From NCBI GenBank assembly GCA_000092065.1, contig CP000581.1: a DNA stretch of 64,000 nucleotides, one strand, 5' to 3'. The notes below the pieces were generated by a model, which worked only from the letters and a program-made list of their open reading frames with translations, made no database searches and had not been told where the DNA came from. Position numbers and translations under genes: made by a program. The DNA comes from Ostreococcus lucimarinus (Eukaryota). Of the stretch, positions 23,675 to 41,847 are shown piece after piece; position 1 is the first letter of the stretch, and the number at the start of each line of letters is the position of its first letter.

Positions 23675-23676
<2 letters not shown>

Positions 23677-23706
<30 letters not shown>
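23677..23706. repeat. (GAC)10 trinucleotide microsatellite in the JmjC/EXO1 divergent promoter
   Basis: Perfect gacgacgac... run. Confidence 0.85.
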
Positions 23707-23711
<5 letters not shown>

Positions 23712-25779: not shown

Positions 25780-25866
25780 TATCGCACGATCGCGTCTAGT
25801 CCATTATTATCTTAGTCTACCATCGTTACATTGGAATTCGTCCGCCTCTTCGCGCGCCGCGAGTCG

Positions 25867-26490
25867 TCACCGCCTCGCGAACGCGTTCGGGATTCGCCCC
25901 GTGCGCACATCTCGCAGCATTTCCCCCGACCGCGCGTGCTTCTCCATCAATCTCGCGCGCACAAACTCGCTCGCCGTCTTCGGCACCGCCCCCCCCCCGT
26001 CGTCGTCCTCCGCGTCCAGCGCCACGACCTCGAAACCGTCCCGCTCGTACGCCCGTCGTTTCGCCTTCTTCCCCTTCTTCTTCTTCTTCTCCCGCTTCCG
26101 CTCCCCCATGTGCGCCTCGTACGCGTCCAACTCATCGTCATCGCGCCTCGCCCGCTTCTTCTCCCCGAACACCGCGTCGACGACGCTCTCCGGCAGCGCC
26201 TCGAGTTCGTCATCCGCCGCCGCCGCCGCCATCGCCGCCTCCGTCCGTTTCGTCCGCGCCTCCGCCTTCGCTTTCGCGCGCGCGTCCTCCGCGTCTCGTC
26301 GCGCGACTTTCGCCGCGTTCTCGCTCGCCTTCGCGCGCGCCCGCGCCGCGCGCTCGTCGTCGCGCCGCCTCGCGACGTCGGCGCGCGCGCCGCGTCCCGA
26401 CACTTCCTCGGGCGCGTCGTCGTCGCTCGCGCCCGCGTCGCGCGCGCCGCGCGTCGTCGTCGCGCGCGCCGATCGACGCGTCGCCGGCAT
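25867..26490 (-). CDS. Hypothetical highly charged (Arg/Asp/Lys-rich) protein, nucleolar-type
   Basis: ORF with coherent codon usage on the strand opposite a spurious overlapping ORF. KKKKKGKKAKRR basic patch. Confidence 0.35.
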   Translation of the reverse strand: MPATRRSARATTTRGARDAGASDDDAPEEVSGRGARADVARRRDDERAARARAKASENAAKVARRDAEDARAKAKAEARTKRTEAAMAAAAADDELEALPESVVDAVFGEKKRARRDDDELDAYEAHMGERKREKKKKKGKKAKRRAYERDGFEVVALDAEDDDGGGAVPKTASEFVRARLMEKHARSGEMLRDVRTGRIPNAFARR

Positions 26491-26582
26491 CGCCGCGCGT
26501 CGATCGCGAGCGCGCTCGCGCGCGTCGTCGTGTGGCCGTCGCGCGCGCGCGGTCGCGTCGATTCGTCACTCGGCCGCGCGCC

Positions 26583-27311
26583 ATGACGCGCGCGCGCGCG
26601 ACGAGCGAGATCACGTGCGGCGACGCGCGACGAGGGTGCGGCGCGCTGCTCAGCTACCCCACCGGATCGCCGCTCGTGCGGTGCGCGCTGTGCGATCACG
26701 TGACGCGAACGCCGGCGGCGACGGATCCGACGCGGCGACGCGCGGTGGCATTCGATTTCGATTTCGACGACGCGGGCGCGCGCGACCGCGAGGCGCAGGC
26801 GCGGTGCGTGGGATGCGACGTCGTCATGCGATTTCCCGCGGACGCGACGCACGTGCGGTGCGCGATGTGCGACGCGGTGAACGTGAACGCGCGAACGGGG
26901 ACGAGGGCGCCGCGCGCGAGCGGGACGCGAGCGTCGTCGGCGCTCGCCGCGCGCGACGCGGCGCGGGAGCGCGCGACGCGGAACGCCGACGACGCTTGGG
27001 CGCGAGGGACGGCGTACGTGCGGTGCGAGGGGTGTCGGGTGACGCTGGCGTATCCGGGAGGGTCGGCGTCGGTGCGGTGCTCGGCGTGCGGCGCGGTGAC
27101 GCGGTGCGCGGAACGCGCGACGCCAAGCACGACGGGGGAGGGGAGTTCGGTGAAGAGCGCGCGGGGAGGAGACCACGCGACGTTGACGAGCGACAATTTA
27201 GTCGTCGTGGAGAATCCGCCGACGGTGAGTGAGAGTGGGAAAATCGTGTCGAACATCGCCGTCGGCGTGCGGTTGGGGAGCGACGGCGGGGAATCGCGGC
27301 GCGGCGAGTAG
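26583..27311 (+). CDS. LSD1-type zinc-finger protein (three zf-LSD1 repeats)
   Basis: Three CxxCxxxLxYPxGxxxVRCxxC repeats: 'CGDARRGCGALLSYPTGSPLVRCALC', 'CVGCDVVMRFPADATHVRCAMC', 'CEGCRVTLAYPGGSASVRCSAC'. Confidence 0.75.
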   Translation: MTRARATSEITCGDARRGCGALLSYPTGSPLVRCALCDHVTRTPAATDPTRRRAVAFDFDFDDAGARDREAQARCVGCDVVMRFPADATHVRCAMCDAVNVNARTGTRAPRASGTRASSALAARDAARERATRNADDAWARGTAYVRCEGCRVTLAYPGGSASVRCSACGAVTRCAERATPSTTGEGSSVKSARGGDHATLTSDNLVVVENPPTVSESGKIVSNIAVGVRLGSDGGESRRGE

Positions 27312-27435
27312 GACGTAGTCATTTCGCGGTCGAGCCGAGAAACGCCGCGATCGAGATGAATGTGTTTTGTAGCACTATTTTACAAGCAAGCGTGTATCGA
27401 TACAACCCCGATCCGAGAATCCGAGGTCTCCCGTC

Positions 27436-28116
27436 CTAAATCTTCTCGATCGCCCTAATCTTAAAGCCCAACGCTATCCACTCCATCTCCAAGTCCCGAA
27501 CCGTGCTCGGCATGTCCGCGTACTCCGGTTCGCGCGCGAACCGAATCAAAAAGTTCGTCCGCCACTCCGACAGGCGTCTCGCCAGCGTCACGTGCCGCAG
27601 CACGTGTTCTCCCAGAAAATTTTCGTACGACTCCCCGCCCGGCTCGAAATCGCTCGTCGCCATGTTCGCCTCCTTCAACCGTTTCGACACCGCCTTCATC
27701 GCCCGCACCTTTTCCTCGAACGCCTCATCTCGCGTCGACTCACCCGGCTGTCGATGCAGCGCCAACCACGCGCCTCGATACTCGTACTCGTCCGCCGTCT
27801 CCGCGTACCGCCACGTCTCCCCTCCCTCGCTCGTCGCCGTCTCCCCGCCCCTCGCCGCGCGCTCGCCCCAGTCCGCCTCGTTCCTCTCGCGCTTCATCCG
27901 CTCCGCCCGTTCGACCGCGTTCGCCGTCCAATCGAACCCGTTTCGCTCGCGAAACGTCGTTCGACGTCGTCCGTCCCGGACGCGCGTCGCGCGTCGTCGC
28001 CGTCCGTCGTCGTCGTCGTCGCGCGCCGTCGCGCGCCGAGCGACGCGCGATCGCGACGCGCTCGAGCGCGTCGCGCGCGCGCGCGCCGTCGCGACGCGCG
28101 CGCCGAGCGACGCCAT
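27436..28116 (-). CDS. Hypothetical protein with Arg-rich presequence
   Basis: ORF only. The C-terminal ~120 aa is non-low-complexity. Confidence 0.35.
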   Translation of the reverse strand: MASLGARVATARARATRSSASRSRVARRATARDDDDDGRRRRATRVRDGRRRTTFRERNGFDWTANAVERAERMKRERNEADWGERAARGGETATSEGGETWRYAETADEYEYRGAWLALHRQPGESTRDEAFEEKVRAMKAVSKRLKEANMATSDFEPGGESYENFLGEHVLRHVTLARRLSEWRTNFLIRFAREPEYADMPSTVRDLEMEWIALGFKIRAIEKI

Positions 28117-28464
28117 GTGACGACCGCGCGACGTCCGACGACGCCGCGATGGCGCCGCGCGCGGGTGTGGCGTCGACGACGCCGCGCGACCCGCGACGCG
28201 CGCGACACAGCGCGACGCCGCGACGACGCGCGAGCGCGCGCGAGACGCGAGACGAACGCGCGAGCGCGCGACGCGTCGAACCGACGACGCGCGAAAGCGA
28301 CGAAAGGCGGCGGGAACGCGTCGAACGGGACCCGTCGCGCGCGGTGATTTTTGAAATTTTGAATTCGCGGCTGTCGAGCGCGTCGATCGCGAGGACGACG
28401 ACGGGAGACGCGGAGAAGACGACGCGGAAGCGACGAACGCGGATAGGCGGGAAGGACGGACGCG

Positions 28465-31400
28465 ATGCCGGCGCGGTCGAGGAAGAGCGAGGCGACGGCG
28501 ACGCGAGGAGGGAACGAAAACGCGGACGAGAGCGGGGCGCCGGCGAAGAAAAAGTCGAGGAGCGGCGCGCGTAAGAAGAAACCGACGACGGGTGGGGAGG
28601 CGTTGAAAAATAGAAACGAGAACGCGTCGGTGCAGAACGCGTCGGTGAGCGGAGATGGGGACGAAGACGCGGACGAGGGCTCGGGGGACTTGTTTGATCT
28701 GTTGCGCGTGGAAAACGCGGCGACGATTTTACACGCGAGTGATTGGCGAGCGCGGTACAACGCGAGCGAGATCTCGGCGGTGGCGGAGATTTATTCGTTA
28801 TTGTCGAAAGCGGCCGGTTGCTCGTCTGGGGTGACTGCGATTGAGTTGCAGAGAAGCGACTGCTTGATGATTATGAATCGCGTCGTCGAAGACATGGCGG
28901 CGGGGAATTTGTACGGCGACGATCCTTTGGCAAAACGTTCGCGAGATTTCAAGGGATTCCGTGAGAACTTCTTGGACTTTATCGATAAGTGCATTCGCGA
29001 CGCGAGCGAAGGCGGGGAGCTGTACGATGGTACGCTCTTCGCGACGCTGGCGGAGATCGTGAGCACGTGCGCCGGGAGCAAGGCGCGTCCGTTGCGCATG
29101 GCTGCCACGATGATGGGTTTACAGATGATTTCCAGTTTGATTACGGTGGTGAATAACTTGCAGAAGGCTCGCGATTTGAAACAAAACCAGGTGGACATCG
29201 AATTGAAGAAGAAAAAGTCTGGCGGCGAAGTGGTCAAGAGTTTGAAGCGCCAAATCGAAAGCGCGCAGGAACACATCGAGTTGGTGGAAGGTTACATGAA
29301 CGACATCTTCACTCACGTTTTCACGCATCGCTTCCGTGATTGCGACGAAAACATTCGCGCCGCGTGCATGACCGCGCTTGGGAAGTGGATGATGAAGCAT
29401 CAGCTCGTGTTCCTCACCGACTTTTACTTGAAATATCTCGGTTGGAGCTTGAACGATAAGAGCGCCGCTGTTCGACTCGAAGTTTTGCTCGCGCTGAAGA
29501 CTTTGGCGTCCAGCCAGTCTCACTTAGCTATGATGGATACGTTTATTGCTCGATTCCGTGGTCGCATGGCGGAAATGTTGCGCGACGTCGACGCCCACGT
29601 CGTCGTGGAGGCGGTGCGACTCGCCGCGGTTTTGCACGAGCACACCGAATTGGATCCTGAGCACATGAACTTTGTCACCGCGCTCATCATGGACAAGACT
29701 CCATCGATCCGTACCGCCGCGGCGAAAGCGACGAAGACACTGATGCACACGCTTACCGAGACGTACCGCAAGGCGCGAGGGATTTCCTATGATGATTCGA
29801 CAAACCCGGCGCTCGAGAAGGAACTTCACGGCATCGTGCAGCTCTTGAACGATCTCGGCGATGAAAATGGCGGGCACGGTAAAGTCATTGAAGGTTTGTC
29901 GGGGGTATATCCCGTCTTGGCACAACCTGGCTTTATCGCGGGCATCTTGAAGCACGACATGGAAATGGCAGACGCGGCCGTGATCGCGAACGTCTTGGTT
30001 CTCACCATGCGCAAGGCGATGGGCGAAGACGTCTCCAACTCGTACACCAAGACGGTGTCTCGACAAAGCGCAAAAATACGAAACGCGATCGAAGCTGCGC
30101 ACGAACAAATGACGAAAGATATCGGTAGCTTGATTCCGCAACTTCTGAGCAAGTATCAAGCCGAAGCTAACGTCATCGGTCCGCTTGTCGAAGTTGTTCG
30201 TTTTGTGAAACTCGAGCACTACTCGTTGCGTCACGAGGAGGATCAATTTACCGCTCTTGCCGAGCAAATAAAAGACATCTTCTTCAAGCACAGCGACAAG
30301 CGTACTTTGGAAGCCTGCGGTGAAGCGTTCAATTACTTCTGCAACGAGGGCTTCGAAGCTACGGCGCCTTTCGCACAACCGGTGCTCGACAGCACGGTGA
30401 ACGACTTGTCGGCTCGCCTATCTCCGGCGTTGAAGAAGGTTCGAGCTTTGATGGCCAAGAGCGATGAAAGCGTGCTGAACGAAAACGAGGGTTACGCGTT
30501 TGAGCTTCGCATGTGCTTGTATCGGGTGCGTGCTTTGATTTCAAAGTGCAATATCTCCAGCGGCGTGCGCGTGATTAACGACTTGTCTCAATACGTCGCC
30601 GACGTCTCGCGCGCCAACGTGCCAGTGGGTAAAGAATCTGTCGCCATGGCGTCCTCGTCTGTTTCTTTCGCTCTCATTTGGCAAGGCCTTGAACTAATGG
30701 ATAGTGATTCGGCGACGAGCGTCGAGGTGAACGAGCACTTGACCGAACGCGACGCCTTCTTGTCCAACGTGATGCACATCTTGCGTCGCGCCGAGGACTC
30801 GATTGCGGATTCGGACGATCTTCGGCGTTCTTTGATTTCCACCGTTTGCGATATGGTGCTGTATTATTACAACGCGAGCACACTGCCCGCGGCGCATCCT
30901 GCGAAAGTGTTGCAGCTGAAGCTCAACTCGGCGGACAGTGAAGCTGTGTGGCAGCAGTGCACCGCGTTGATCACGCCGGATGACGTCAAGCAAGACGCCG
31001 ACTTGGACTCGGCACGCCTCGCGTACCGCATGGCAGTGCACGAACAGCGTATCGCCTCCAACGGTGCGATCGGTGCAGACTTTTTGTCCAACTTCAAACT
31101 TACCGGCCCCTGGATCGATGCCGCCATCCGCACGTACTGCAGTGATTTACGCCGAACCGGTCCACAAGTGCTCGTGCGCGCTGTCTTGACAGCGTTGCAC
31201 AGCGCGTATGCAGAAGTCTTACAGACGGATCTCGGAAACCGACAAGTGCTCATCGAGGCGTTCACCGATCTCGCGACCCGATTGAGTGATATCTTTATGC
31301 TATCATCCAAACGCGATCGCTTGGTCATGCGCATCATGTTCGACGAGTCGCTCAAGTCTGTCCTTCTCCCCGAACCGTCGTACGACCGATTTTCCTTCTT

Positions 31401-31794
31401 GGCGTACGGACTGGGTCCCTTCCTCTCAAGACTGTCCGCCGTCGACGCCAAGGCTTTGACGACGTTCGTCGACGATGCGCTCGCCAAAGTCGATAGTGAG
31501 GACACGAGATGTACGCCATTGATTGATTTCGCCGATCAGCTCAACAAGCGTTCCAAGGGCGCGTCGGAGCGCCGCGCGCGTTGGGCGAGAAAACGCTCCG
31601 CGGAACAACAAGATGTAGACGTCAAGAAGTCCAAGGCCGACGACGGAGACGAGGACGAAGGCGATGATGATGCCATGGAGCAAGACGACACCATCGAAAC
31701 CGCCAACGATGACGCCGAAACCACCGCGGATGATCACACTTTGGACGACGGTCCGGTGGAGACCGCCGAGCGCAGTCGCTCGCGCCGCAAGTGA
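28465..31794 (+). CDS. SCC3: Cohesin subunit SA/STAG (Scc3)
   Basis: STAG N-domain and stromalin conserved domain 'FTHRFRDCDENIRAACMTALGKWMMKHQLVFLTDFYLKYLGWSLNDKSAAVRLEVL'. 1109 aa with acidic C-terminus. Confidence 0.75.
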   Translation: MPARSRKSEATATRGGNENADESGAPAKKKSRSGARKKKPTTGGEALKNRNENASVQNASVSGDGDEDADEGSGDLFDLLRVENAATILHASDWRARYNASEISAVAEIYSLLSKAAGCSSGVTAIELQRSDCLMIMNRVVEDMAAGNLYGDDPLAKRSRDFKGFRENFLDFIDKCIRDASEGGELYDGTLFATLAEIVSTCAGSKARPLRMAATMMGLQMISSLITVVNNLQKARDLKQNQVDIELKKKKSGGEVVKSLKRQIESAQEHIELVEGYMNDIFTHVFTHRFRDCDENIRAACMTALGKWMMKHQLVFLTDFYLKYLGWSLNDKSAAVRLEVLLALKTLASSQSHLAMMDTFIARFRGRMAEMLRDVDAHVVVEAVRLAAVLHEHTELDPEHMNFVTALIMDKTPSIRTAAAKATKTLMHTLTETYRKARGISYDDSTNPALEKELHGIVQLLNDLGDENGGHGKVIEGLSGVYPVLAQPGFIAGILKHDMEMADAAVIANVLVLTMRKAMGEDVSNSYTKTVSRQSAKIRNAIEAAHEQMTKDIGSLIPQLLSKYQAEANVIGPLVEVVRFVKLEHYSLRHEEDQFTALAEQIKDIFFKHSDKRTLEACGEAFNYFCNEGFEATAPFAQPVLDSTVNDLSARLSPALKKVRALMAKSDESVLNENEGYAFELRMCLYRVRALISKCNISSGVRVINDLSQYVADVSRANVPVGKESVAMASSSVSFALIWQGLELMDSDSATSVEVNEHLTERDAFLSNVMHILRRAEDSIADSDDLRRSLISTVCDMVLYYYNASTLPAAHPAKVLQLKLNSADSEAVWQQCTALITPDDVKQDADLDSARLAYRMAVHEQRIASNGAIGADFLSNFKLTGPWIDAAIRTYCSDLRRTGPQVLVRAVLTALHSAYAEVLQTDLGNRQVLIEAFTDLATRLSDIFMLSSKRDRLVMRIMFDESLKSVLLPEPSYDRFSFLAYGLGPFLSRLSAVDAKALTTFVDDALAKVDSEDTRCTPLIDFADQLNKRSKGASERRARWARKRSAEQQDVDVKKSKADDGDEDEGDDDAMEQDDTIETANDDAETTADDHTLDDGPVETAERSRSRRK

Positions 31795-31922
31795 GTCGAC
31801 GACGCGAACGCGAACTTAGGACATGTACACGGACAATCACGATGAATGAGATATAACAGCAAATATAGGGAAACATAGATGAAATTTTGTTACACAAAGA
31901 ATACGATTATACGCGTACACTT

Positions 31923-32636
31923 TTAAGCGATCGGCGCCGGTTGCAACTCGTGCGCAAGTCGTCTACGCGTGGCGACGTCGCCACCCGGCGGAAGTTCGCC
32001 GGTGGCGGGCGTGTCCGATCCCACGGGCGCGTTGATAGCCTTTTCGATCGTACCTGGCGGTGCGCGCTGTCTTTGCAAATCTAATTCACCCATCAACCGT
32101 CCGAGCTTGGACAAACTTTCCTGCAGTCGCGTCTGCAACTCGGGAACGAGCGCCAAATTCGCGTCGAGCTCTTTCCTCAGCGCCTCCATTGCCTCACCAT
32201 CCACGCTCGCCTCAACCCTGTTCAACGCCGCGGCATCACCGTCATCATCTCCAGCCATCATCGGTCGAAGCTCGGTCAAACGATCCGCATAATTCTTCGC
32301 CACCGCCCCCGGCGTCGTCGCCCGCTGCTCCGCCACCCTCGCGCTCAGCTCCGCCACCTCCTCCTCCAACGCGTCCAACTCCGGATCCGCGATCTCCCGT
32401 TCGCTCACCTCGCGCCCCTTTTCACCCCCCTCCGCCGTCCCACATATCACGTTCGCCCTCACGCTCCCCAGCACGCGCTCCGTCATCGCGTACAAGTGCC
32501 GCTTCAGCGCCTTCGCGCGTTCGTTCGACCACTTCGGATCGCGTTTCGCGTGATCGATCGTCTCCAGCACCGCCTCGCAGAGCTTCTCTTCGATCTTCGC
32601 CAGTTCATCGTTCGTCGCGACGCGCACTTTCACCAT
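31923..32636 (-). CDS. Hypothetical coiled-coil protein
   Basis: ORF, helical/coiled-coil character. No confident family. Confidence 0.35.
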   Translation of the reverse strand: MVKVRVATNDELAKIEEKLCEAVLETIDHAKRDPKWSNERAKALKRHLYAMTERVLGSVRANVICGTAEGGEKGREVSEREIADPELDALEEEVAELSARVAEQRATTPGAVAKNYADRLTELRPMMAGDDDGDAAALNRVEASVDGEAMEALRKELDANLALVPELQTRLQESLSKLGRLMGELDLQRQRAPPGTIEKAINAPVGSDTPATGELPPGGDVATRRRLAHELQPAPIA

Positions 32637-32740
32637 CGCGCGCGCGCGTTCGCGTCACGCGTCGCGTCGCGCGCCGGCGTCGTCGTCGTCGCGGTGTGGC
32701 GCGCATGCATTCAAATCTCGGCTGTCGTTCCCCTCGGCCG

Positions 32741-32936
32741 CGCAGGCTGGACAAACGTCGATCGCGGTTTCTAGACTCATGGCGCTCGATTCGCTTGAAT
32801 ACACAGAAAACAATTCGAGAGTCATGTTTTGATGCCCGACTCGGTTTGCAAAAATTCTCGAATTGTTTTCTGTGTATTCAAGCGAATCGAGCGCCGTGAG
32901 TCTAGAAACCGCGATCGACGTTTGTCCAGCCTGCGC
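32741..32936. repeat. Near-perfect inverted repeat: two 80-bp arms (32741..32820 and 32857..32936, one mismatch) around a 36-bp AT-rich loop
   Basis: The reverse complement of arm 1 equals arm 2 with a single mismatch, t versus c in the 'ctcatggcgctcga' / 'tcgagcgccgtgag' segment. It lies between two divergent gene starts (32636 and 33008). Confidence 0.9.
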
Positions 32937-33007
32937 GTCGACGCGTCCGACGTCGGCGGCGTGACGTCACGCGCGCGCGACCGCACTTCACGGCGACGAC
33001 GACGACG

Positions 33008-33814
33008 ATGATGACGACGACGACGATGACGGCGCGACTGTCGATGAAAACGACGATGACGAACGCGCGCGCGAAGACGCGGTCGGTGAACGGCCGGGCG
33101 ACGCGCGCGAGCCGCGGTAAAGCGATCGAAGGACTGGGAAAAGATGACGCCGGTGAGCGCGCGGCGACGATGGAGAACGCGAAGGCGGCGGTGAGCGCGT
33201 TGGCGATCGCGACGTGCGTGACGGCGATGCCGGAGATGGCGCACGCGAGCGGGGGGGAGTTTGGGATTCTCGAGGGTCGATCGGCGGCGCTTTTGCATCC
33301 GATCGGCTTGGGGTCGCTGTACGCGGTGACGCTTTACGCCGGGTGGCTCGGGTTGCAGTGGCGACGCGTGCGGACCGTCGGTGATGAGATCGCGGGATTG
33401 AAGAAGACGTTGCCCGAAGATGCGGCGGCGGCGGCTGGGAGCGCGGTGGCGAAACAGATTGACGAGCTCACGTCGACGAGAAAGGAACTCGTGGCGGGCA
33501 AGTTCAAGGATAAGCACGCGAATATGGGGTACTTGCTCCTGGCTTTGGGAGTGACTCTGGCCGTCGAGGGCGGCATGAACACCTACTTGCGCGTGGGCAA
33601 GCTCTTCCCGGGGCCGCACTTGTACGCCGGGGCGTCTATCGTCGTACTTTGGGCCATGGCGGCTGGTTTGGTGCCGCAAATGGAAAAAGGCAACCAAAAA
33701 GCGCGCGACTTGCACATCGCGTTGAACTGCGTCAATCTCGCTCTGTTCACGTGGCAAATCCCCACCGGGTTGGAGATCGTCGGTAAGGTTTTCCAATTCA
33801 CGAGCTGGCCGTAG
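33008..33814 (+). CDS. Chloroplast-type multi-pass membrane protein (DUF4079-like)
   Basis: Transit-peptide-like N-terminus, then about 4 TM helices ('LLHPIGLGSLYAVTLYAGWLGLQWRR', 'HANMGYLLLALGVTLAVEGG'). Confidence 0.45.
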   Translation: MMTTTTMTARLSMKTTMTNARAKTRSVNGRATRASRGKAIEGLGKDDAGERAATMENAKAAVSALAIATCVTAMPEMAHASGGEFGILEGRSAALLHPIGLGSLYAVTLYAGWLGLQWRRVRTVGDEIAGLKKTLPEDAAAAAGSAVAKQIDELTSTRKELVAGKFKDKHANMGYLLLALGVTLAVEGGMNTYLRVGKLFPGPHLYAGASIVVLWAMAAGLVPQMEKGNQKARDLHIALNCVNLALFTWQIPTGLEIVGKVFQFTSWP

Positions 33815-33858
33815 ATGTTTCTAGCTAACTAATTTTTTACACGGTCAAGGACCTCATC

Positions 33859-35232
33859 CTAAATAATATGCGCTCGCGCCGCGTTCGACCTCGACGACGT
33901 GCCTCTAAACATCGAGGACGACTGCTTCGCCACTACCCCGCTGTCGTCGTCGTCGTCTGCTACGGAAAACGCCGACGGAACGTTCGTGAACGCGACTTCC
34001 CGAAACTCTTCGCTCAGGCGAGAGAAGTCGCCTCGAGACGATCGACGCTTGAACGAGCACGAACTTGGCAAATTGCCGTAGTAGCGAAGGACGAGCACCG
34101 ATACTATGAGAAGTACGGTCACCAGACCTACTTGTGCCCCGATGGATACCTTGGGCATCGCCAAGGATCTTCCGGTTTTCGACGCGAGCACGACGTCGCT
34201 GCACAGCACCTCGGCGTCGTTCCCGTCGAGTAGTACGAACGTTTTCCCGACGATAGATTTCGCACCGCTCAGTGGCAAGTTCGAATCGCTATACAGCACT
34301 ATTTCTGACGACGATAACGTCCCTTGTCGTACCCAAATCTCACCAATCGGGCAATCCTCGGCGAGCGCTTCCGCGCCGCGCGAGGCACACGACGACTTCT
34401 CTTCGGGATTGTACAGCCTTCCCACGTGCGCGCACGAGTTCGAGCTCCCCGCCGTACCCGAATAAATCGCCCATCGATACGGCCCGATCGCATCGCCGTG
34501 CGCGCGATTTACCAATTGAACCGAGATCCGCGTATCCGCCGCCGCGTCCGCCGCCGACTGCCGCATCGTCACCAACCCGCTAATCTTACTCAACGTCGTC
34601 CCGAGCGTCGCGCGCGCCTCGACGAATCCGTCTTCACCGTCATCTTCCTCGATCGTCGCGCACGCGAACGGAACCTTACCAGCGCTAAATCCATCTAGTC
34701 CAGCCGCTCGGTCGCCGCGCCAAACCGCCAACGCGCGTCCGCTCACCGACCGTCGTCCCGCGAGCGGTAAATTCCGATCGACGAACTCGTACGTCTTCCC
34801 GCTCACGCTCGCGATCATCCCCGCGTCCATGCGCGCGCACACGTCGCCGATCGCGCACGTCCCGCCCGCGCACGCGCCCGCGCCGCCGTCCGGATTATAC
34901 ACCTCCCCCAGCGTCGCCTCGTCGCACGCCCCGTTCGCGCCTCGACCGCGCTCGTGCACCGTGACGTGCGTCGGGAAATCATCGCTCGTCGACGACCGCG
35001 CGGCGGTGACGCGAACGCGCGCGTACGTCACCCCGCCCTCGTACGCCTGCGCGAACGTCGCCTCGACCGAGGATCCGTCGGCGTTCGTCGCGCGCGCGCG
35101 CAGCGTCTTCGCGCGCGCGGTCGTCGCCGCGGACGCGAGCGCGACGAGCGCGATCGCGCGCGCGATCGCTCGCGCGCGCGCGCCCGCGCGGCGACGCATC
35201 GCGCGCGCGTGTGCCGCCGCGTCGAGCGGCAC
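33859..35232 (-). CDS. Type-I membrane protein with two degenerate Cu/Zn-superoxide-dismutase-like domains
   Basis: Signal peptide. 'THVTVHERGRGANGACDEATLGEVYNPDG' and 'VNRAHGDAIGPYRWAIYSGTAGSSNSCAHVGRLYNPEE' resemble the SOD1 '[24 protein letters not shown]' region, but the Zn-loop histidines are absent. C-terminal TM 'IGAQVGLVTVLLIVSVLVL'. Confidence 0.45.
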   Translation of the reverse strand: MPLDAAAHARAMRRRAGARARAIARAIALVALASAATTARAKTLRARATNADGSSVEATFAQAYEGGVTYARVRVTAARSSTSDDFPTHVTVHERGRGANGACDEATLGEVYNPDGGAGACAGGTCAIGDVCARMDAGMIASVSGKTYEFVDRNLPLAGRRSVSGRALAVWRGDRAAGLDGFSAGKVPFACATIEEDDGEDGFVEARATLGTTLSKISGLVTMRQSAADAAADTRISVQLVNRAHGDAIGPYRWAIYSGTAGSSNSCAHVGRLYNPEEKSSCASRGAEALAEDCPIGEIWVRQGTLSSSEIVLYSDSNLPLSGAKSIVGKTFVLLDGNDAEVLCSDVVLASKTGRSLAMPKVSIGAQVGLVTVLLIVSVLVLRYYGNLPSSCSFKRRSSRGDFSRLSEEFREVAFTNVPSAFSVADDDDDSGVVAKQSSSMFRGTSSRSNAARAHII

Positions 35233-35251
35233 TTCTCGCCGACGCGTCGAC

Positions 35252-35282
<31 letters not shown>

Positions 35283-35292
35283 GCGACGCGCG

Positions 35293-36087
35293 ATGACGGC
35301 GCGACGCCTCGCGCGCGAGTGCGCGCGCCGCGCCGTCGCGTCGACGACGGCGGCGACGGCGCGGACGACGACGGCGGCGACGACGACGGCGACGCGATGC
35401 GTGCAGACGTCATCGCTCGCGCGGTTCGCCGCGCCGGTGCGCGCGTTCTCGCCGAACGCCAAGCCGCGCTCGCTCGAGACGGCGGCGACGAAGGACGGAG
35501 ACGTCGTTCCCGAGCGCTCGCTCACCGGTTGGCGGCGGGTGGCGCTGACGCTGGGTGGATATTTTAGCCCGGAGAGCCGACGCGTGCGCGGCGGCGAGCG
35601 GCTGTACGAAGAGGTGACGCGGGCGACGGCGATCGATGCGCTGTACGACGCGCACGCGGTGGAAAAGACGTTCGCGAGTCGACACGCGATGATGTGCCTG
35701 CACGTGTGGATGTGCTTGGGGCGGTTGCGAAAAGAGGGAGAGGGGGGGAAGGCGTTTAGTCAGACGTTTTACGACGCGTTTCAAGACGACGTGGAGCGAC
35801 GCGTGCACGATGAGGGCGTGCGCGTGCGCGTGCGAAAGTGGTTACAGGATTTAGAGAGGACATTTTATGGGAATGCGGTGTCGTACGATAAAGCGCTCGA
35901 GCTCGGGGGTGGAGAACTCGTGAAGGCTTTGCATAGAAACGTGTACGACGGCGACGGCGACGTCGACCGCGCCAAGGGGTTGGAGCGGTACGTTCGACAT
36001 CAGCTCGCGTCGTTGGCGCTGACGCCCACGGAGGCGTTATTCGACGGGCGCGTTAGATTCGTTGGCTTCGATGAGCAAGAAGAATAG
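35293..36087 (+). CDS. CBP3: Ubiquinol-cytochrome c reductase assembly chaperone CBP3/UQCC1
   Basis: 'HAMMCLHVWMCLGRLRKEG...FYDAFQDDVERRV' Ubiq_cyt_C_chap-like block. Mitochondrial presequence. Confidence 0.65.
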   Translation: MTARRLARECARRAVASTTAATARTTTAATTTATRCVQTSSLARFAAPVRAFSPNAKPRSLETAATKDGDVVPERSLTGWRRVALTLGGYFSPESRRVRGGERLYEEVTRATAIDALYDAHAVEKTFASRHAMMCLHVWMCLGRLRKEGEGGKAFSQTFYDAFQDDVERRVHDEGVRVRVRKWLQDLERTFYGNAVSYDKALELGGGELVKALHRNVYDGDGDVDRAKGLERYVRHQLASLALTPTEALFDGRVRFVGFDEQEE

Positions 36088-36131
36088 CATCGCGGTGTAC
36101 TTTTAAAGTAATTTTTATTGACATCAGTCTT

Positions 36132-37199
36132 CTAATACGGGCGCCCGAATCGCGGCTTGTCGCCGTCCTCCTTTGGTTTGTTTGCGCTATCTCCGCCACC
36201 GCCGCCGAAACGCGCGCCGCCGCGATCGGGCCCGCCTCGGCCGCCACCACCGTCGCCACGACCGCGGCCGCCTCGACCACCTCGGCCGCCACCTCGGCCG
36301 CCTCGGCCGCCTCGGCCGCGTTCGTCGACCTTGCCCACGAAGACGGGCTCGTGCGTCGTCGGCGGCTGCGCGTCTGGGTCTTCCCCGCGCGCGATCGCTT
36401 CTTCCCTCGCCTTGGCTTTCTTTTCCAATTGTTCCTGCTTCTTTTGTTCCATGTACGCCGCCTTCATCATGAGCGTGAGCTTCGCGCCCTTGTACTCCAA
36501 GTCGGCGCGTTCGGCAATCGCCTTGGCCTCCTCTTCGGTGGCGAACTCGACGAAAATGCTCCCCCGAAAATCCTTGCTCGTCGTGTGTCGACGCAAACGA
36601 ATCGACCGCGCGTTACCCACCGTCTTGAAGTACGCCAAAAGCGCCTCGATCGTCGCGTCCTTCGCGAACGGACTCGCGAACACGAACCGCTTGTCCAACT
36701 CCTCCACCATCGCGCTTCGATACGCCGTCACGCCGTCGTCCGTGGCGAGATCCGGCGTCTCCCCGTTCACGAGCATCGACTTCCGCCGCACCCGCGTCCC
36801 ATCGGCGCACGCCTCGACGACGTCGCTTCCCTCCAGCGCCCTCGCCACGCGCTCCACGTTTTTCGCCTCATCCTTCCCCCCGTACGCCGCCAAAAAATCC
36901 CGCATCCTCGAGAAGGATGCGATGAGCGCGATCGGCACCCCCCCCTCGTGTCCCTCGCGCACCGCTCGCGACACCTCGTCGAGCAAGAACGCATCGCGCG
37001 GAAGATTCGAGTCGCCGAGGTAGAACTCGATCTGCGCGCGCACCCTGTCGCGCGTCGCGTCGTCGAAATCCGCCGCCCCCGTCGCGTCGTCCTCGCGCCG
37101 CGCGCGCGCGTCGTCGTCGCCCGTCGACGCGCGCGGCGCGTCGCGCGGCGCGTCGCTCGGCGCGTCGCTCGCGACGGCGTCGGTCGCGTCGGTCGTCAT
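36132..37199 (-). CDS. La protein (La motif + RRM) with C-terminal RGG/Gly-Arg repeats
   Basis: La motif 'QIEFYLGDSNLPRDAFL', RRM ('SIFVEFATEEEAKAIA'), C-terminal (GGRGGRG)n. Confidence 0.7.
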   Translation of the reverse strand: MTTDATDAVASDAPSDAPRDAPRASTGDDDARARREDDATGAADFDDATRDRVRAQIEFYLGDSNLPRDAFLLDEVSRAVREGHEGGVPIALIASFSRMRDFLAAYGGKDEAKNVERVARALEGSDVVEACADGTRVRRKSMLVNGETPDLATDDGVTAYRSAMVEELDKRFVFASPFAKDATIEALLAYFKTVGNARSIRLRRHTTSKDFRGSIFVEFATEEEAKAIAERADLEYKGAKLTLMMKAAYMEQKKQEQLEKKAKAREEAIARGEDPDAQPPTTHEPVFVGKVDERGRGGRGGRGGGRGGRGGRGRGDGGGGRGGPDRGGARFGGGGGDSANKPKEDGDKPRFGRPY

Positions 37200-37361
37200 G
37201 TCGCGGCTCGACGCGCGTCGCGCTCCGTCGCGCGGCGCGCGTCGCGCGCGGCGGCGGCGGCGGCGCGAGTCTCAAGCGCGCACACGGACCGTCGAACGCG
37301 ATCGCGACGACGACGCGACGACGACGCGCGACGCCGCGCAGCGCGACGCGACGCGACCGCG

Positions 37362-38663
37362 ATGGCGGGCGCGCGACGAAGCGCGCGCGGCGCGGCGAGC
37401 GACGCGCCCGCGGCGAGCGCCGACGCGAGCGACGCGCGGAAGAAACGCGCGAAGGCGAAAGACGCGACGAAATCGTCGAACGCGAAGACGGACGCGCGAT
37501 CGAACGGAAAGGCGAAGGCGCGCGCGGTGTCCGCGCCCGCGGTCGCGGATGGGACTCGGTTGAAGCGGGAGACGGCGTTCCTGTGTCACGCGCAGTTTAA
37601 GAACGATCTGCCGGCGGTGCCGATCGATTGGAAGATGTTGCAGACGAGGGTGGATCGACGGGCGCTGACGGAGTACTCGCACTTGTCGCTGTACGACGGG
37701 TTGCGGAAGCGAGGGGACTTTAGCGAGGATTTAGGGATACCTTTGGATCCTGCGCTGATGCGGGCGTATCGGGTGCCGACGCGGCGGGTGGCGATGGATC
37801 CGGAGGATCACGAATTGACGATGAGCTCGGCGGAGCGCGAGGGGAAGCGCAACGGGGCGATCGGGACGAGCGGACGCGCGGTGAGCAGACCGGACGCCTC
37901 CGACGCGCTTTGGTTGATGAACACGCAGTACATCTCCGCGGGGAGCATCAAGGCGCGCACGGGGTTGAGCGAGAAGGAGATGAAACGCCGAAGACTCGAG
38001 GCGCAGGGGGGCGCCGCGGAGCCAGAGGTCGAGCTCTCGCAAGTCGAACAAATCGAAGCCTCGTTCGCGGCGGCGAAGCGACCTCCGGTGCATCCGACGA
38101 ACAAGAAGGCCAAAGTGGTGGAGGTTCTTCCCGTGCTGCCCGATTTCGAGCGCATCGCGATGGACTACGTGCGCTTGAACTTTGACGAGAAGCAGGAAAC
38201 CGACGTCGCGTCGCTCTCGGGCAAATCCGCGGAGACGATTGAAAACGCGTTGAACTGCGGGGTGGTAAAACCGTTCAGCATCGTGAACGAGCGCAATCAA
38301 ACCGAACGATTCTTATCGCTCATGCTTCCGCAAGACCCCGATGCGGCGATGGAGGAGGACTTTCTCGCCTTGGACGGCGAGCCGCGCCAATACGACCACG
38401 TTCGCGACTACGTGTACAAGATTCACCAAGACGATCCGAATCTCGGAGGCGGGAACATGTGCTTCTTCTTTAAGAAGGACCGCGTCACGTACGTCGACTT
38501 ACACACCAAACTCACGCTGTCGAAGCGAAGCAAGCACTCGAAGGGTAAAGAGGCGACGGATTCTTGGAAACCGAGCGAGGTGACACTGCAACGGCGACGC
38601 ATGACGGAGGAAGAAAAGAGCGCGCTGGACGCGAAGCGCGAGAGCATCAGAGCGGGGGCGTGA
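37362..38663 (+). CDS. PAF1: RNA polymerase II-associated factor 1 (Paf1) homolog
   Basis: Domain order and 'AFLCHAQFKNDLPAVPIDWKML' resemble Paf1 family members. Start is moved to 37362 to avoid an antisense overlap with the La gene. Confidence 0.5.
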   Translation: MAGARRSARGAASDAPAASADASDARKKRAKAKDATKSSNAKTDARSNGKAKARAVSAPAVADGTRLKRETAFLCHAQFKNDLPAVPIDWKMLQTRVDRRALTEYSHLSLYDGLRKRGDFSEDLGIPLDPALMRAYRVPTRRVAMDPEDHELTMSSAEREGKRNGAIGTSGRAVSRPDASDALWLMNTQYISAGSIKARTGLSEKEMKRRRLEAQGGAAEPEVELSQVEQIEASFAAAKRPPVHPTNKKAKVVEVLPVLPDFERIAMDYVRLNFDEKQETDVASLSGKSAETIENALNCGVVKPFSIVNERNQTERFLSLMLPQDPDAAMEEDFLALDGEPRQYDHVRDYVYKIHQDDPNLGGGNMCFFFKKDRVTYVDLHTKLTLSKRSKHSKGKEATDSWKPSEVTLQRRRMTEEEKSALDAKRESIRAGA

Positions 38664-38749
38664 TCATCTATCATCTTTTAGCATTGTGGAATAACGACGA
38701 CTTCAGCGAGTCTTTAGAAATTACAGCATAAATGCGGAACCCTTCGTCC

Positions 38750-38882
38750 TCACTCCAACATCGCGCGCTCGAGTTCCTCCTTGAGCGACCCGTCCTTGAA
38801 CGCGTCGACGGTGATGTCGCACCCACCGAAGAATTCTCCGCCTACGTACAGCTGCGGAAACGTCGGCCACGACGAATAATCC
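38750..38882 (-). CDS. GRX5: Monothiol glutaredoxin (Grx5-type, CGFS), exon 2
   Basis: Encodes '(K)DYSSWPTFPQLYVGGEFFGGCDITVDAFKDGSLKEELERAMLE*', which completes the Grx fold after a 98-bp intron (38883..38980; donor GTGCGT, acceptor TAG). Confidence 0.6.
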
Positions 38883-38980
38883 CTACGTCACCCCCCCGAT
38901 CCCAAATCGTCAGTCACCGCGCCGTCGTCCGACTCGTCGTTCGTTCGCGTTCGCGTTCGCGTCGCCTCGCCCCGACGCAC

Positions 38981-39306
38981 TTCATCCCCTGTCTCAAGTC
39001 CTCGTTCGCCAGGATATCGACGTCCGCGAACGGCACGTTCATCGAGTTCAAAATCTGCACGCACGTGTTCGAGAACCCACACCTCGGCGCGTCCTTCGTC
39101 CCCTTCATGAAGAGCACCACGCGGTGTTCCGCGACGAACGCGTCGATGGATTCGCGCAGCTCGGGCCCCATCTGCGCCGAGACTCGCGCGTCGCGCGCGC
39201 GTCCGGTCGCGCACCGCGCGCGCACCGCGCGCGTCGCGCGCGTCGCGCGCATCGTCGCGCGCATCGTCATCGCGCGCGTCGTCGTCGGCATCGTCGTCGT
39301 CGGCAT
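38981..39306 (-). CDS. GRX5: Monothiol glutaredoxin (Grx5-type, CGFS), exon 1 with presequence
   Basis: 'VVLFMKGTKDAPRCGFSNTCVQILNSMNVPFADVDILANEDLRQGM'. The track ORF runs on into the intron and gives a nonsense tail. Which upstream ATG is used is uncertain. Confidence 0.6.
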
Positions 39307-39360
39307 CGTCGCCCCGTCGCGGTCTCGCGCCGGCGCCGCGCCGGCGCCGCGCCGATCGCG

Positions 39361-39580
39361 CGATCGATCGCGCGCATCGAGCTCGACCCTCGCGCGGGCG
39401 ATCGGTCTCGACGCTCGAAACGCGCGCGATCGATCGCGCGACGCGCGCGATGACGATCGATCGACGCGCCGATCGATCGCGCGATCGATCGCGCGTTTCG
39501 AGCTCGAACCTCGCGCGGGCGATCGGTCTCGACGCTCGAAACGCGCGCGATCGATCGCGCGACGCGCGATGCGTCGATCG
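39361..39580. repeat. Tandem duplication, about 130-bp period x2, rich in cgatcg/cgcgcg palindromic motifs, in the Grx5/GNAT divergent promoter
   Basis: 'cgatcgatcgcgcg[ca/tt]tcgagctcga[c/a]cctcgcgcgggcgatcggtctcgacgctcgaaacgcgcgcgatcgatcgcgcgacgcgcg' occurs twice, starting near 39361 and 39492. Confidence 0.8.
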
Positions 39581-39662
39581 CGCGCGATCGCGCGATCTGA
39601 TCCGAAACCGACGGCCGACCGCCGGCATTGATCGTCGACCGATCGACCGCGCGACGCGCGCG

Positions 39663-40703
39663 ATGGCGTCGCGCGCGGTGTCGATCGACGCGCGCGCGCG
39701 CGGCGACGCGATGGCGTCGCGCGCGACGCGCGGCGCGACGCGGGACGGCGCGCGACGCGCGACGCGCGGAACGCAGACGACGACGACGCGACGACGCGCG
39801 ATGACGACGACGCGATGCGATGGGCTCGCGCGGACGGGACGCGGCGGCGCGACGAGGGACGCGTCGACGTCGACGATGATGGGCGCGGGCGCGGGCGCGC
39901 GGGGAGGGGTGGCGCGACGCGCGCTGGCGGATCGACCGACGCGAGAGGCGGCGGAGGACGAGGACGCGCGCGCGACGGGCGCGAGCCGGGTGAAGTCGAG
40001 GGGGGGGGTGGACGTCGTCGTCGCGACGAATGACTTCGCGTTTGAGATCGCGGCGAATCTCAGGGCGACGGCGTTTTACGATGATCTCGCGGAGAGGCAC
40101 GAGATGCCGTTTCCGCCGCGGTTCACGCCGACGTTTCATCGGGAGTTCGCGCAGCGCGAACGCAAGGCGCTGCGGGAGCGGACGACGAGACGCGTGGGGC
40201 CGGCGCTGGAGTCGCGATGTTTCATGGCGGATTGCGAAGGATTGGGGTTAGTGGGGTGTTTGGACGTCAGCGTGCGCGAGGGGCCGTGCGCGAGTCAGAT
40301 CAACGGCGTGTGCGTGCCGGAGGGGGCGTCGTACGCGTACGTGGACAACGTGGCGGTGGACGCCGCGGCTCGTCGACGAGGGTCGGCGAAGCTCATGATG
40401 GAGTGCGCGAGCGACTGGGTCGAAGAGCGTGGAATCACGGAAATCTGGACGCACGTGCACTGCGATAACGTGGGCGCGCGAAGATTGTACCACGCGTACG
40501 GTTTCCGGGCGCCCAGCGGCTCGCATCCGGAACAAGGCTTGCCGAATTACTTCAACGGCGAGCGATTGAAGGGCCTAATCTTAATGCGAGCCCCTGTGCC
40601 GCTGGTGTACGAGGCGCGCGTTGACGCGGTTTGCGGATGCGGCGCGTGCTTCGCGCGCGTGGACGAGTGCATCTGCATCAAACCCGCGGTCGCCGCGCGT
40701 TAA
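39663..40703 (+). CDS. GNAT-family N-acetyltransferase with organellar presequence
   Basis: 'YAYVDNVAVDAAARRRGSAKLMMECASDWVEERGITEIWTHVHCDNVGARRLYHAYGF' GNAT motifs A/B. Ala/Arg/Thr-rich N-terminus. Confidence 0.55.
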   Translation: MASRAVSIDARARGDAMASRATRGATRDGARRATRGTQTTTTRRRAMTTTRCDGLARTGRGGATRDASTSTMMGAGAGARGGVARRALADRPTREAAEDEDARATGASRVKSRGGVDVVVATNDFAFEIAANLRATAFYDDLAERHEMPFPPRFTPTFHREFAQRERKALRERTTRRVGPALESRCFMADCEGLGLVGCLDVSVREGPCASQINGVCVPEGASYAYVDNVAVDAAARRRGSAKLMMECASDWVEERGITEIWTHVHCDNVGARRLYHAYGFRAPSGSHPEQGLPNYFNGERLKGLILMRAPVPLVYEARVDAVCGCGACFARVDECICIKPAVAAR

Positions 40704-40845
40704 CGCCGCCTCGAGTCGAGACTACTTAAACTTTGTTGTACTTTTCCTGCCCGCCGTACTATATGCGCGCTCGCTGCTAAGCATTTTTAAACCGATGCTA
40801 CGAAAATATGCTCATGATTCACAATTCGTTCGCTACTGTAGTGCG

Positions 40846-41709: not shown

Positions 41710-41847
41710 GACGTCGATCTCCACGCCGCGGAGCTCGCGCTCGTCGCACGCGGGCATGGCGACGACGACGCGCGGGCGAATGGCGACGACGCGCCATCGC
41801 GCGACGCCGACGCCGACGCGACGCGGCGCGGCGCGGCGCGGCGCGCG

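What the first reader, a model, noticed from the sequence alone, without database searches (positions are those of the whole stretch)
32741..32936. 196-bp hairpin-forming inverted repeat in a bidirectional promoter
Two 80-bp arms are 79/80 identical in inverted orientation around a 36-bp AT-rich loop. They sit exactly between two divergently transcribed genes and in a locally GC-poor patch. Such a long, nearly perfect palindrome is unexpected in non-coding DNA of a compact genome. It could be a foldback/MITE-like mobile element, a hairpin (mi/si)RNA precursor, or a recombinogenic cruciform. Both spurious flanking ORFs share the peptide 'LDKRRSRFLDSWRSIRLNTQKTIRE', which is how the repeat showed up in the track.
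Basis: seen in the sequence. Interest (0 to 1): 0.6.

Follow-up and report, generated by a model that had tools for sequence, protein, structure and literature searches.

The report
Young palindrome in an algal promoter
A real, apparently single-copy 199-bp near-perfect DNA palindrome sits in the shared promoter of two Ostreococcus lucimarinus genes, but it is confined to this species, is less perfect in most wild cells, and is most likely a recent replication accident, not a mobile element or a microRNA gene.

Summary
Arms 32739-32820 and 32856-32937 (82 nt, 81/82 complementary) flank a 35-nt loop. The fold is about 28 SD more stable than shuffles. GC is 50% against 74% in the flanks. The element lies between a divergent 237-aa gene (-) and a DUF4079 gene (+) on Ostreococcus lucimarinus CCE9901 chromosome 1. 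No second copy was found in the window, in metagenome, viral or prokaryotic pattern scans, or in a 5.8-billion-protein search with the translated arms. There is no perfect target-site duplication. Six other Ostreococcus lineages keep the gene order and the promoter motifs on either side, but have an unstructured 50-110 bp spacer instead. Every wild O. lucimarinus contig carries the element at full length, but about 94% of ~132 contigs have three arm mismatches. The element varies 3.5 times more than other intergenic DNA. At two pairs, rare haplotypes are paired again with a different base pair; this suggests arm-to-arm correction but is not proven. The literature reports no Dicer or Argonaute genes in this species. 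Verdict: most likely a young in-situ inverted duplication, template-switch type, nearly neutral. The MITE and miRNA readings are not supported. Modest interest.

The parts
32739..32820 (.). Left arm of the palindrome (82 nt)
   Evidence: the repeat finder I1. The outer ~30 nt are also present in a ~4% diverged sister lineage, L027 and L028.
32821..32855 (.). Asymmetric 35-nt spacer (loop), 43% GC, with a weak internal stem
   Evidence: Polymorphic at 32835 (C in the reference, A in all wild contigs), and loop peptide variants N>T and H>L are seen on 5 contigs each.
32856..32937 (.). Right arm of the palindrome (82 nt), reverse complement of the left arm apart from G32896
32709..32733 (.). Conserved promoter motifs left of the element: ATTCAAATC (32709-32717) and CTGTCGTTCCCC (32722-32733)
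   Evidence: The same motifs are found in the otherwise unalignable intergenic regions of the other Ostreococcus lineages L009, L010 (TTCAAATC; the second motif only in variant form), L011, L013 (variant forms), L014 and L015 (second motif only).
32949..32969 (.). Conserved ACGT-core motifs right of the element: GACGTC (32949-32954) and TGACGTCA (32962-32969)
   Evidence: GACGTC, usually as GATGACGTCGAC, is present at the corresponding place in all six outgroup lineages. That it is a bZIP-type binding site is inference from general knowledge.
31923..32636 (-). Divergent gene 1: 237-aa protein XP_001415944.1, no Pfam domain; start codon 102 bp from the palindrome
33008..33814 (+). Divergent gene 2: DUF4079 protein (268-aa ORF); start codon 70 bp from the palindrome

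Best explanation
The element is a young inverted duplication specific to the O. lucimarinus lineage. It arose in place within the variable spacer of a conserved bidirectional promoter. The most likely cause is a single replication template-switch or fold-back event that copied about 82 bp of spacer in reverse-complement orientation and left 35 bp between the copies. It is a nearly neutral passenger, not a transposon or an RNA gene. Since its birth the arms have accumulated point mutations at least as fast as neutral DNA. Occasionally a mismatch appears to be corrected against the opposite arm, in either direction, as expected from quasi-palindrome template switching or hairpin heteroduplex repair. 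Shown: the structure, its apparent uniqueness, its absence from other species, its imperfect state in most wild genomes, and its elevated polymorphism. Inferred: the template-switch origin, the neutrality, and the arm-to-arm correction.
For: Structure and uniqueness. No paralogue was found. A 24-mer scan of JGI metagenomes returned 3 contigs, all the orthologous locus. A search with the translated arms against 5.8 billion proteins returned only the 80-aa spurious ORF of this same locus. Viral and prokaryotic scans returned nothing. Lineage specificity: six other Ostreococcus lineages (74-77% nucleotide identity in the 237-aa gene) keep the order STAG, 237-aa gene, DUF4079 and the flanking motifs. 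They have no palindrome and no similarity to the arms, and their spacers fold like shuffled sequence (z from -1.2 to +0.7). Spacer argument: the distance between the conserved motifs is 50-110 bp in outgroups and 215 bp here, of which only 5 + 11 bp lie outside the palindrome. One arm plus loop (117 bp) is therefore about the size of an ordinary spacer and the second arm is the excess (inference). A foreign insertion would also need loss of nearly the whole old spacer. There is no perfect target-site duplication. No constraint on pairing: about 124 of ~132 wild contigs carry the T.C mismatch at 32791/32885, and every full-length contig of that common type also carries mismatches at 32762/32914 (T.G) and 32771/32905 (G.G). 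Further pair-breaking variants segregate (32888, 32895, 32907, 32817, 32779). Segregating-site density is 4.0% in the element, 1.16% in other intergenic DNA (Fisher P = 0.008) and 0.47% at 4-fold sites (P = 5e-5). Arm interaction: pair 32771/32905 occurs as C-G (reference), G.G (majority) and G-C (L008). Pair 32791/32885 occurs as T-A (reference plus 4 wild contigs), T.C (majority) and G-C (4 contigs; L026 and L008 form a nested series from different samples). The chance of two such complementary double changes is about 0.01-0.03. Template switching is a documented one-step source of perfect hairpins and of stem correction (PMC5453318, PMC8794818).
Against: No ancestral one-arm state was recovered. 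The outgroups are too diverged: the arm matches their spacers no better than shuffles (summed score P = 0.41 forward, 0.65 reverse). The ~4% diverged sister lineage (L027, L028) shows only the outer left arm before its contigs end. The complete CCE9901 genome could not be searched, so single-copy status rests on proxies. An 82-nt copied segment is longer than the largest template-switch pattern reported in the rRNA survey (59 bp). The rare re-paired haplotypes come from short-read de Bruijn assemblies, where the two arms share k-mers and bubble-popping could create exactly such states. The tool's own shuffle control on pair counts does not discriminate (303/500). The element was never lost or shortened in any wild contig. 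That fits neutrality with a stabilising 35-bp spacer, but it also fits a function. No expression data were available.
Confidence: 0.55

Rival explanations
1. Solo foldback/MITE-like transposon. A non-autonomous element made almost entirely of its terminal inverted repeats inserted once into this promoter in the O. lucimarinus lineage.
For: The element is all inverted repeat with a short loop. Its GC content (50%) is far below its 74% GC flanks, as for foreign or outlier-chromosome DNA. It is absent from other species. An imperfect 5-bp direct repeat, TCGGC/TCGAC, flanks it.
Against: No second copy was found by any search available. The flanking repeat is only 4/5 and is made of common CG-rich words. 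There is no empty-site allele among the 11 contigs retrieved independently of the element. Only about 16 bp of non-palindromic spacer remain where relatives have 50-110 bp, so an insertion would also need a near-complete deletion of the old spacer. Low GC is also seen in some outgroup spacers by eye (L010 and L014 sequences).
Confidence: 0.12
2. Functional cis-regulatory palindrome. The structure (cruciform or stem-loop DNA) or its duplicated sequence acts as a regulator or insulator of the two divergent promoters and is kept by selection.
For: It lies exactly between two conserved promoter motif blocks. It is retained at full length in every wild contig. All haplotypes remain extremely stable hairpins, -162 to -174 kcal/mol. 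Mismatches are sometimes re-paired.
Against: It is not conserved in any other Ostreococcus lineage with the same gene pair and the same motifs. The commonest wild haplotype has three mismatches and more are segregating. Polymorphism is higher than in neutral DNA, the opposite of purifying selection. A 35-bp spacer disfavours cruciform extrusion (general knowledge).
Confidence: 0.12
3. Older palindrome held nearly perfect by continuing arm-to-arm gene conversion (concerted evolution), with or without function. On this view its perfection does not mean youth.
For: The reference and the wild majority share no mismatch. Re-pairing occurs in both directions at two pairs. G at the 32771-equivalent site in the sister lineage suggests that the reference's C-G pair is a derived correction. 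The outer left arm predates a ~4% split. A reference-type haplotype exists in the wild (P0173), so it is not a Sanger artefact.
Against: The mismatched haplotype dominates, at about 94% of contigs. The polarity rests on one site next to a poorly aligned contig tip. Three mismatches in 82 nt is about what independent arm divergence since a ~4% split would give. Assembly artefacts can mimic conversion.
Confidence: 0.15
4. Hairpin RNA gene: a precursor of micro, small interfering or other structured RNA transcribed from the bidirectional promoter.
For: A very stable 82-bp stem. Weak Rfam similarity to miRNA precursor models: mir-578 at 38.5 bits, E = 2e-5.
Against: The Rfam scores are far below the gathering thresholds (38.5 against 98; 22.6 against 69). 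O. lucimarinus is reported to lack Dicer and Argonaute (PMC4014436). There is no conservation outside the species. Pair-breaking variants are common. A -170 kcal/mol stem in either 5' leader would be expected to block ribosome scanning (general knowledge), so the transcription starts are more likely outside it.
Confidence: 0.04

Closest known systems
Template-switch mutations and quasi-palindrome correction (Ripley model; four-point model of Loytynoja and Goldman 2017, PMC5453318; Monttinen and Loytynoja 2022, PMC8794818)
   Same: A reverse-complement copy lies next to its source, giving a perfect hairpin in one step. There is no target-site duplication and only one copy. Later mismatches can be corrected against the opposite arm, which yields apparent compensatory changes without selection.
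   Different: The 82-nt arms are longer than the events catalogued in those papers, which were tens of bp with a largest rRNA pattern of 59 bp. The ancestral one-armed state was not recovered here, so the mechanism is inferred, not reconstructed.
MITEs and foldback transposons
   Same: A short non-coding element dominated by inverted repeats, AT-richer than its surroundings, located in a promoter.
   Different: No family, no perfect target-site duplication and no empty site were found, and the ancestral spacer is missing where an insertion would have left it interrupted.
miRNA and hairpin-RNA (inverted-repeat siRNA) loci of plants and Chlamydomonas
   Same: A long near-perfect stem-loop of recent origin by inverted duplication.
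   Different: The host is reported to lack Dicer and Argonaute. The element is not derived from any detectable gene: the arm translations hit nothing else. It sits between two start codons, not in a transcription unit of its own.
Large genomic palindromes with arm-to-arm gene conversion, such as the primate Y-chromosome ampliconic palindromes (own knowledge)
   Same: Two inverted arms separated by a unique spacer. Arm differences appear to be resolved in either direction.
   Different: The scale is 82 bp against kilobases to megabases. There are no genes in the arms, and the evidence for conversion here is only suggestive.

Membership tests
MITE / foldback transposon | Multiple related copies in the genome | tested here: not met
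   Only the orthologous locus was found in the window, in JGI metagenome contigs, and in the 5.8-billion-protein search with translated arms. Viral and prokaryotic collections gave 0. Limit: the complete CCE9901 assembly itself could not be searched, and diverged copies would escape exact-pattern scans.
MITE / foldback transposon | Target-site duplication directly flanking the terminal inverted repeats | tested here: not met
   The flanks read ...CCCCTCGGC | element | TCGACGCG.... The best candidate is TCGGC/TCGAC, 4 of 5, with no perfect duplication at any length from 2 to 10.
MITE / foldback transposon | Insertion polymorphism or an empty site in relatives, with the surrounding sequence intact | tested here: not met
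   All 11 contigs retrieved through the neighbouring gene carry the full element. Outgroups lack it, but they also have 50-110 bp of unrelated spacer where only about 16 bp remain here.
miRNA / siRNA hairpin precursor | Host encodes Dicer and Argonaute | not testable with these tools
   PMC4014436 states that O. tauri and O. lucimarinus lack the genes for Dicer and Argonaute. This was not re-tested on the genome here.
miRNA / siRNA hairpin precursor | Match to a curated RNA family, or conservation of the stem with covariation across species | tested here: not met
   Rfam hits are far below the gathering scores, and none reach them anywhere in the window. There is no hairpin in six other Ostreococcus lineages.
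miRNA / siRNA hairpin precursor | Discrete small RNAs mapping to the stem | not testable with these tools
   No expression data were accessible.
Template-switch (quasi-palindrome) inverted duplication | Reverse-complement copy adjacent to its source, short unique spacer, single locus, no target-site duplication | tested here: met
Template-switch (quasi-palindrome) inverted duplication | Ancestral or sister sequence carrying only the source arm | tested here: inconclusive
   The sister lineage L027/L028 has the outer left arm, but its contigs end there. Outgroup spacers show no significant similarity to the arm in either orientation.
Template-switch (quasi-palindrome) inverted duplication | Correction of arm mismatches against the opposite arm | tested here: inconclusive
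   Two pairs have changes on both sides. My position-and-base null gives P of about 0.01-0.03, but the tool's shuffle control does not discriminate (303/500) and a de Bruijn assembly artefact is not excluded.
Selected structural cis-element (cruciform or regulatory palindrome) | Purifying selection on pairing, and conservation in species sharing the promoter | tested here: not met
   The majority wild haplotype has 3 mismatches, and variation is 3.5 times that of other intergenic DNA. The element is absent in all outgroups even though the flanking motifs are conserved.

The most novel reading that the evidence does not exclude
The palindrome is not merely young. It is actively kept near-perfect by arm-to-arm correction (template switching or hairpin heteroduplex repair) in natural populations of an RNAi-less picoalga, and its structure matters for the bidirectional promoter. 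That would make it a natural, population-scale example of concerted evolution of a very short non-coding DNA palindrome and of palindrome-driven hypermutation.
Probability: 0.12. Interest if true: 0.55.

Novelty: new member of a known kind. Interest (0 to 1): 0.3.

Why it matters
On its own this is one small, probably neutral structural mutation. Its modest value is as a natural case study. O. lucimarinus is abundant in metagenomes, so one palindrome can be followed across more than 100 independent wild genomes. These show a hotspot of polymorphism, mismatches that dominate the population, and rare haplotypes in which pairing is restored with a different base pair. With long reads, this would allow a direct test of whether template switching or arm-to-arm conversion acts on short palindromes in a eukaryote that lacks RNAi. 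It also shows how an apparent compensatory substitution can arise without any RNA function. In practice, it warns that such hairpins produce spurious ORFs (the 80-aa 'hypothetical protein' called on more than 130 contigs) and possibly assembly artefacts.

Tried and rejected
(1) A conserved small hairpin in every clade's spacer. By eye each outgroup spacer has a 5-9 bp inverted repeat, but their folds are no better than shuffles (z from -1.2 to +0.7). Rejected.
(2) The left arm as the ancestral spacer, because it seemed to share GGATTTC and GGACTCGTGG motifs with outgroups at similar offsets. Local-alignment scores for the forward arm, the reverse arm and shuffled arms are indistinguishable (summed score P = 0.41 forward, 0.65 reverse). 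Rejected.
(3) L022 as an intermediate outgroup (about 5% diverged overall). It is a mosaic, and positions 31.5-36.5 kb are identical to the common wild type. Not usable.
(4) The formal covariation test. With 8 haplotypes the column-shuffle control cannot discriminate (303/500).
(5) Rfam and tRNA or tmRNA: nothing.
(6) Viral origin, by two arm patterns against IMG/VR, and prokaryotic origin: nothing.
(7) Recovering the sister lineage's full element through called ORFs. No ORFs from that lineage were found, but the search did reveal a reference-type haplotype in the wild (P0173).
(8) L025's five clustered A>C and T>G private changes were treated as possible sequencing errors and not used as evidence.
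(9) The MAFFT alignment of the intergenic regions showed only the flanking motifs as alignable.

Full report
**What is there.** The window is chromosome 1 of Ostreococcus lucimarinus CCE9901. The 237-aa ORF 31923-32636 (-) is XP_001415944.1, and the cohesin SA/STAG ORF 28465-31794 (+) is XP_001415613.1 on a 1,152,508-bp record. At the reported place there is an inverted repeat with arms 32739-32820 and 32856-32937: 82 nt, 81/82 complementary, 35 nt between the arms. The only mismatch is T32780 opposite G32896. The fold of 32730-32946 is -177 kcal/mol as RNA and -117 kcal/mol as DNA, 28 standard deviations below dinucleotide shuffles. The element is 50% GC inside intergenic flanks of 74% GC. 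It occupies 199 of the 371 bp between the start codons of two divergent genes, the 237-aa gene (no Pfam domain) and a DUF4079 gene. Nothing comparable exists elsewhere in the 64-kb window or in about 35 kb of DNA from other Ostreococcus lineages.

**Copy number.** A 76-nt arm probe with 3 mismatches allowed, and a blastn-short search, find only the two arms in the window. An invariant inner-arm 24-mer found three JGI metagenome contigs, all of them the same locus. It found nothing in IMG/VR or in 185,579 prokaryotic genomes, and a second arm pattern also found nothing in IMG/VR. Gene callers place a spurious 80-aa ORF across the hairpin, so I searched the translated arms against 5.8 billion predicted proteins. 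Only that ORF from this locus was returned. The element therefore looks single-copy. The caveat is that the complete reference assembly itself was not searchable and that diverged copies would be missed. The flanks show no perfect target-site duplication; the best candidate is TCGGC/TCGAC.

**Phylogenetic distribution.** I fetched the orthologous locus from six other Ostreococcus lineages: L009, L010, L011/L012, L013, L014 and L015. Their DUF4079 proteins are 81-90% identical to the window's, and the 237-aa gene is 74-77% identical at the nucleotide level. All keep the order STAG (+), 237-aa gene (-), DUF4079 (+). Their intergenic DNA is otherwise unalignable. Even so, most of them keep two motif blocks that bracket the palindrome in the window: TTCAAA(A)TC plus CTGTCG(T/C)TC..CCCC on the left (window 32709-32733; L010, L013 and L015 carry one of the pair only in variant form or not at all) and GACGTC, usually GATGACGTCGAC, on the right in all six (window 32949-32969). 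Between these blocks the outgroups have 50-110 bp with no long inverted repeat, no similarity to the arms, and folding no better than shuffles. O. lucimarinus has 215 bp there, of which all but 5 + 11 bp is the palindrome. One arm plus the loop (117 bp) is about the size of an ordinary spacer, and the second arm is the excess. A foreign insertion would need a simultaneous loss of almost the whole old spacer. This is my main argument, and it is an inference, for an in-situ inverted duplication over a transposon insertion.

**A closer relative.** A 237-aa protein variant with 9 substitutions (P0015) led to two contigs, L027 and L028, from a lineage about 4% diverged in that gene. Both keep the left motifs and the outer ~30 nt of the left arm (GCGCAGGCTGGACAAACGTCGA...GGTTT). 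They then differ from the window, and both contigs end there. At least the outer left arm therefore predates that split. Whether this lineage has the right arm is unknown. It has G at the position equivalent to 32771, as the wild majority does.

**Population variation.** The locus is abundant in marine metagenomes: the exact 237-aa protein is indexed in 1076 blocks of the collection. All 11 distinct contigs retrieved through that gene, and so independently of the hairpin, carry the element at full length. These include contigs of 0.95 and 1.13 Mb.

- These contigs differ from the reference by about 0.25-0.55% overall, yet by five sites inside the 199 bp: 32771, 32835, 32885, 32896 and 32914.
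- In the common wild form the arms have three mismatches: 32762/32914 T.G, 32771/32905 G.G and 32791/32885 T.C.
- Peptide variants of the 80-aa ORF give frequencies over about 132 contigs. About 124 have the T.C state at 32791/32885, 4 have T-A (as in the reference) and 4 have G-C.
- Further pair-breaking variants exist at 32888 (5 contigs), 32779, 32886, 32895, 32907 and 32817, along with two loop variants.
- A reference-type haplotype (C32771 and no ATG at 32897-32895) also occurs in the wild (P0173).
- Segregating-site density is 4.0% in the element, 1.16% in the other 1.2 kb of intergenic DNA (P = 0.008) and 0.47% at 4-fold sites (P = 5e-5).

The sequence is therefore not under purifying selection, and pairing is not strongly protected. 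All haplotypes still fold at -162 to -174 kcal/mol.

**Do the arms interact?** At two pairs three states occur. Pair 32771/32905 is C-G in the reference, G.G in the majority and G-C in L008. Pair 32791/32885 is T-A in the reference, T.C in the majority and G-C in L026 and L008. L026 and L008 come from different samples and are nested: L026 is the majority form plus 32791G, and L008 adds 32905C and 32817A. This is what a real lineage would look like. Given 13-16 variable arm sites, the chance of two complementary double changes is about 0.01-0.03. Three cautions apply.

- The tool's column-shuffle control cannot discriminate with 8 sequences (303/500).
- The polarity is uncertain.
- In de Bruijn assemblies the two arms share canonical k-mers, so bubble-popping could create exactly these restored states.

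I therefore rate arm-to-arm correction as suggestive, roughly 60:40 real against artefact. It would fit classical quasi-palindrome template switching, which converts near-perfect into perfect inverted repeats and yields apparent compensatory substitutions without selection (PMC5453318, PMC8794818).

**RNA readings.** Rfam gives only generic, far sub-threshold hits to miRNA-precursor models: 38.5 bits against a gathering score of 98, and 22.6 against 69. Nothing in the whole window reaches a gathering score, and there are no tRNAs. PMC4014436 states that O. tauri and O. lucimarinus lack the genes for Dicer and Argonaute. The stem is not conserved beyond the species. A stem of about -170 kcal/mol in either 5' leader would be expected to block ribosome scanning (general knowledge). 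I therefore predict that both transcription starts lie between the palindrome and the respective ATG.

**Conclusion.**
- Most likely (0.55): a young, lineage-specific, in-situ inverted duplication of template-switch or fold-back type in the variable spacer of a conserved bidirectional promoter. It is nearly neutral, decays by point mutation, and may be corrected arm-to-arm now and then.
- Older palindrome maintained by continuing conversion: 0.15.
- Solo foldback or MITE insertion: 0.12.
- Selected structural cis-element: 0.12.
- Hairpin RNA gene: 0.04.

The kind is known and this instance is new. Interest is modest at 0.3. It would rise if long reads confirm the re-paired haplotypes, or if the sister lineage shows a co-evolved palindrome.

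Noticed in passing
window 32709-32733 and 32949-32969; L009, L010, L011, L013, L014, L015 intergenic regions: Across Ostreococcus lineages whose intergenic DNA is otherwise unalignable, the promoter shared by the 237-aa gene and DUF4079 keeps three short motifs in fixed order: TTCAAA(A)TC, CTGTCG(T/C)TC..CCCC and (GA)TGACGTC(GAC). The first two are missing or variant in L010, L013 and L015. They are candidate core cis-elements of this bidirectional promoter.
   Followed up: partly
L022:1-20714 (ena:ERZ10646630:contig_12114), equivalent to window 23310-42790: The divergence from the window is a mosaic: about 3-18% in most 500-bp windows, but essentially 0% between window positions 31500 and 36500, the segment that contains the palindrome. 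This is either recombination or introgression between O. lucimarinus lineages, or a chimeric consensus of a long-read metagenome assembly. L028 shows the same kind of pattern: the gene is 4% diverged while the downstream intergenic region is identical.
   Followed up: partly
window 32655-32897 (-): Gene callers annotate a spurious 80-aa 'hypothetical protein' across the left arm, the loop and half of the right arm in more than 130 metagenome contigs (clusters P0151-P0154, P0156, P0170 and others). Its start codon exists only in the wild haplotype (A at 32896) and not in the reference.
   Followed up: yes
window 32670-32692 and 32995-33036: (GTC)n on the left and (GAC)n on the right form a second, imperfect inverted repeat around the palindrome (22 nt, 91%). 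Read in the sense of each gene, both leaders and N-terminal regions carry GAC repeats. The same arrangement is present in outgroups L009 and L010. The left repeat varies in length in the wild: 79-aa against 80-aa ORF variants.
   Followed up: no
L025:104-302 (window 32803, 32813, 32815, 32832, 32833): One 5-kb JGI contig carries five private A>C or T>G changes clustered within 31 bp of the inner left arm and loop. These are either sequencing or assembly errors at the hairpin or a local multi-nucleotide mutation event.
   Followed up: no
L027:1-129 and L028:1-152: Both short-read contigs of the ~4% diverged sister lineage end inside the region equivalent to the left arm. There is also a 3-bp indel exactly at the outer boundary of the arm (CTCGGCCGCGCAGG in the window, CTCG---GCGCAGG in the sister). 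Assemblies appear to break at this structure.
   Followed up: partly
window 31923-32636 (-): The 237-aa protein has no Pfam match at E <= 0.1 and is very abundant in marine metagenomes (1076 index blocks). Orthologues of 232-237 aa occupy the same syntenic position in all the Ostreococcus lineages examined. Its function is unknown.
   Followed up: no
window 33041: The window's 268-aa DUF4079 ORF is absent as an exact sequence from the 15-billion-protein collection. All wild contigs covering the site differ from the reference at 33041 (T>C). The deposited reference gene model presumably uses a different start.
   Followed up: no
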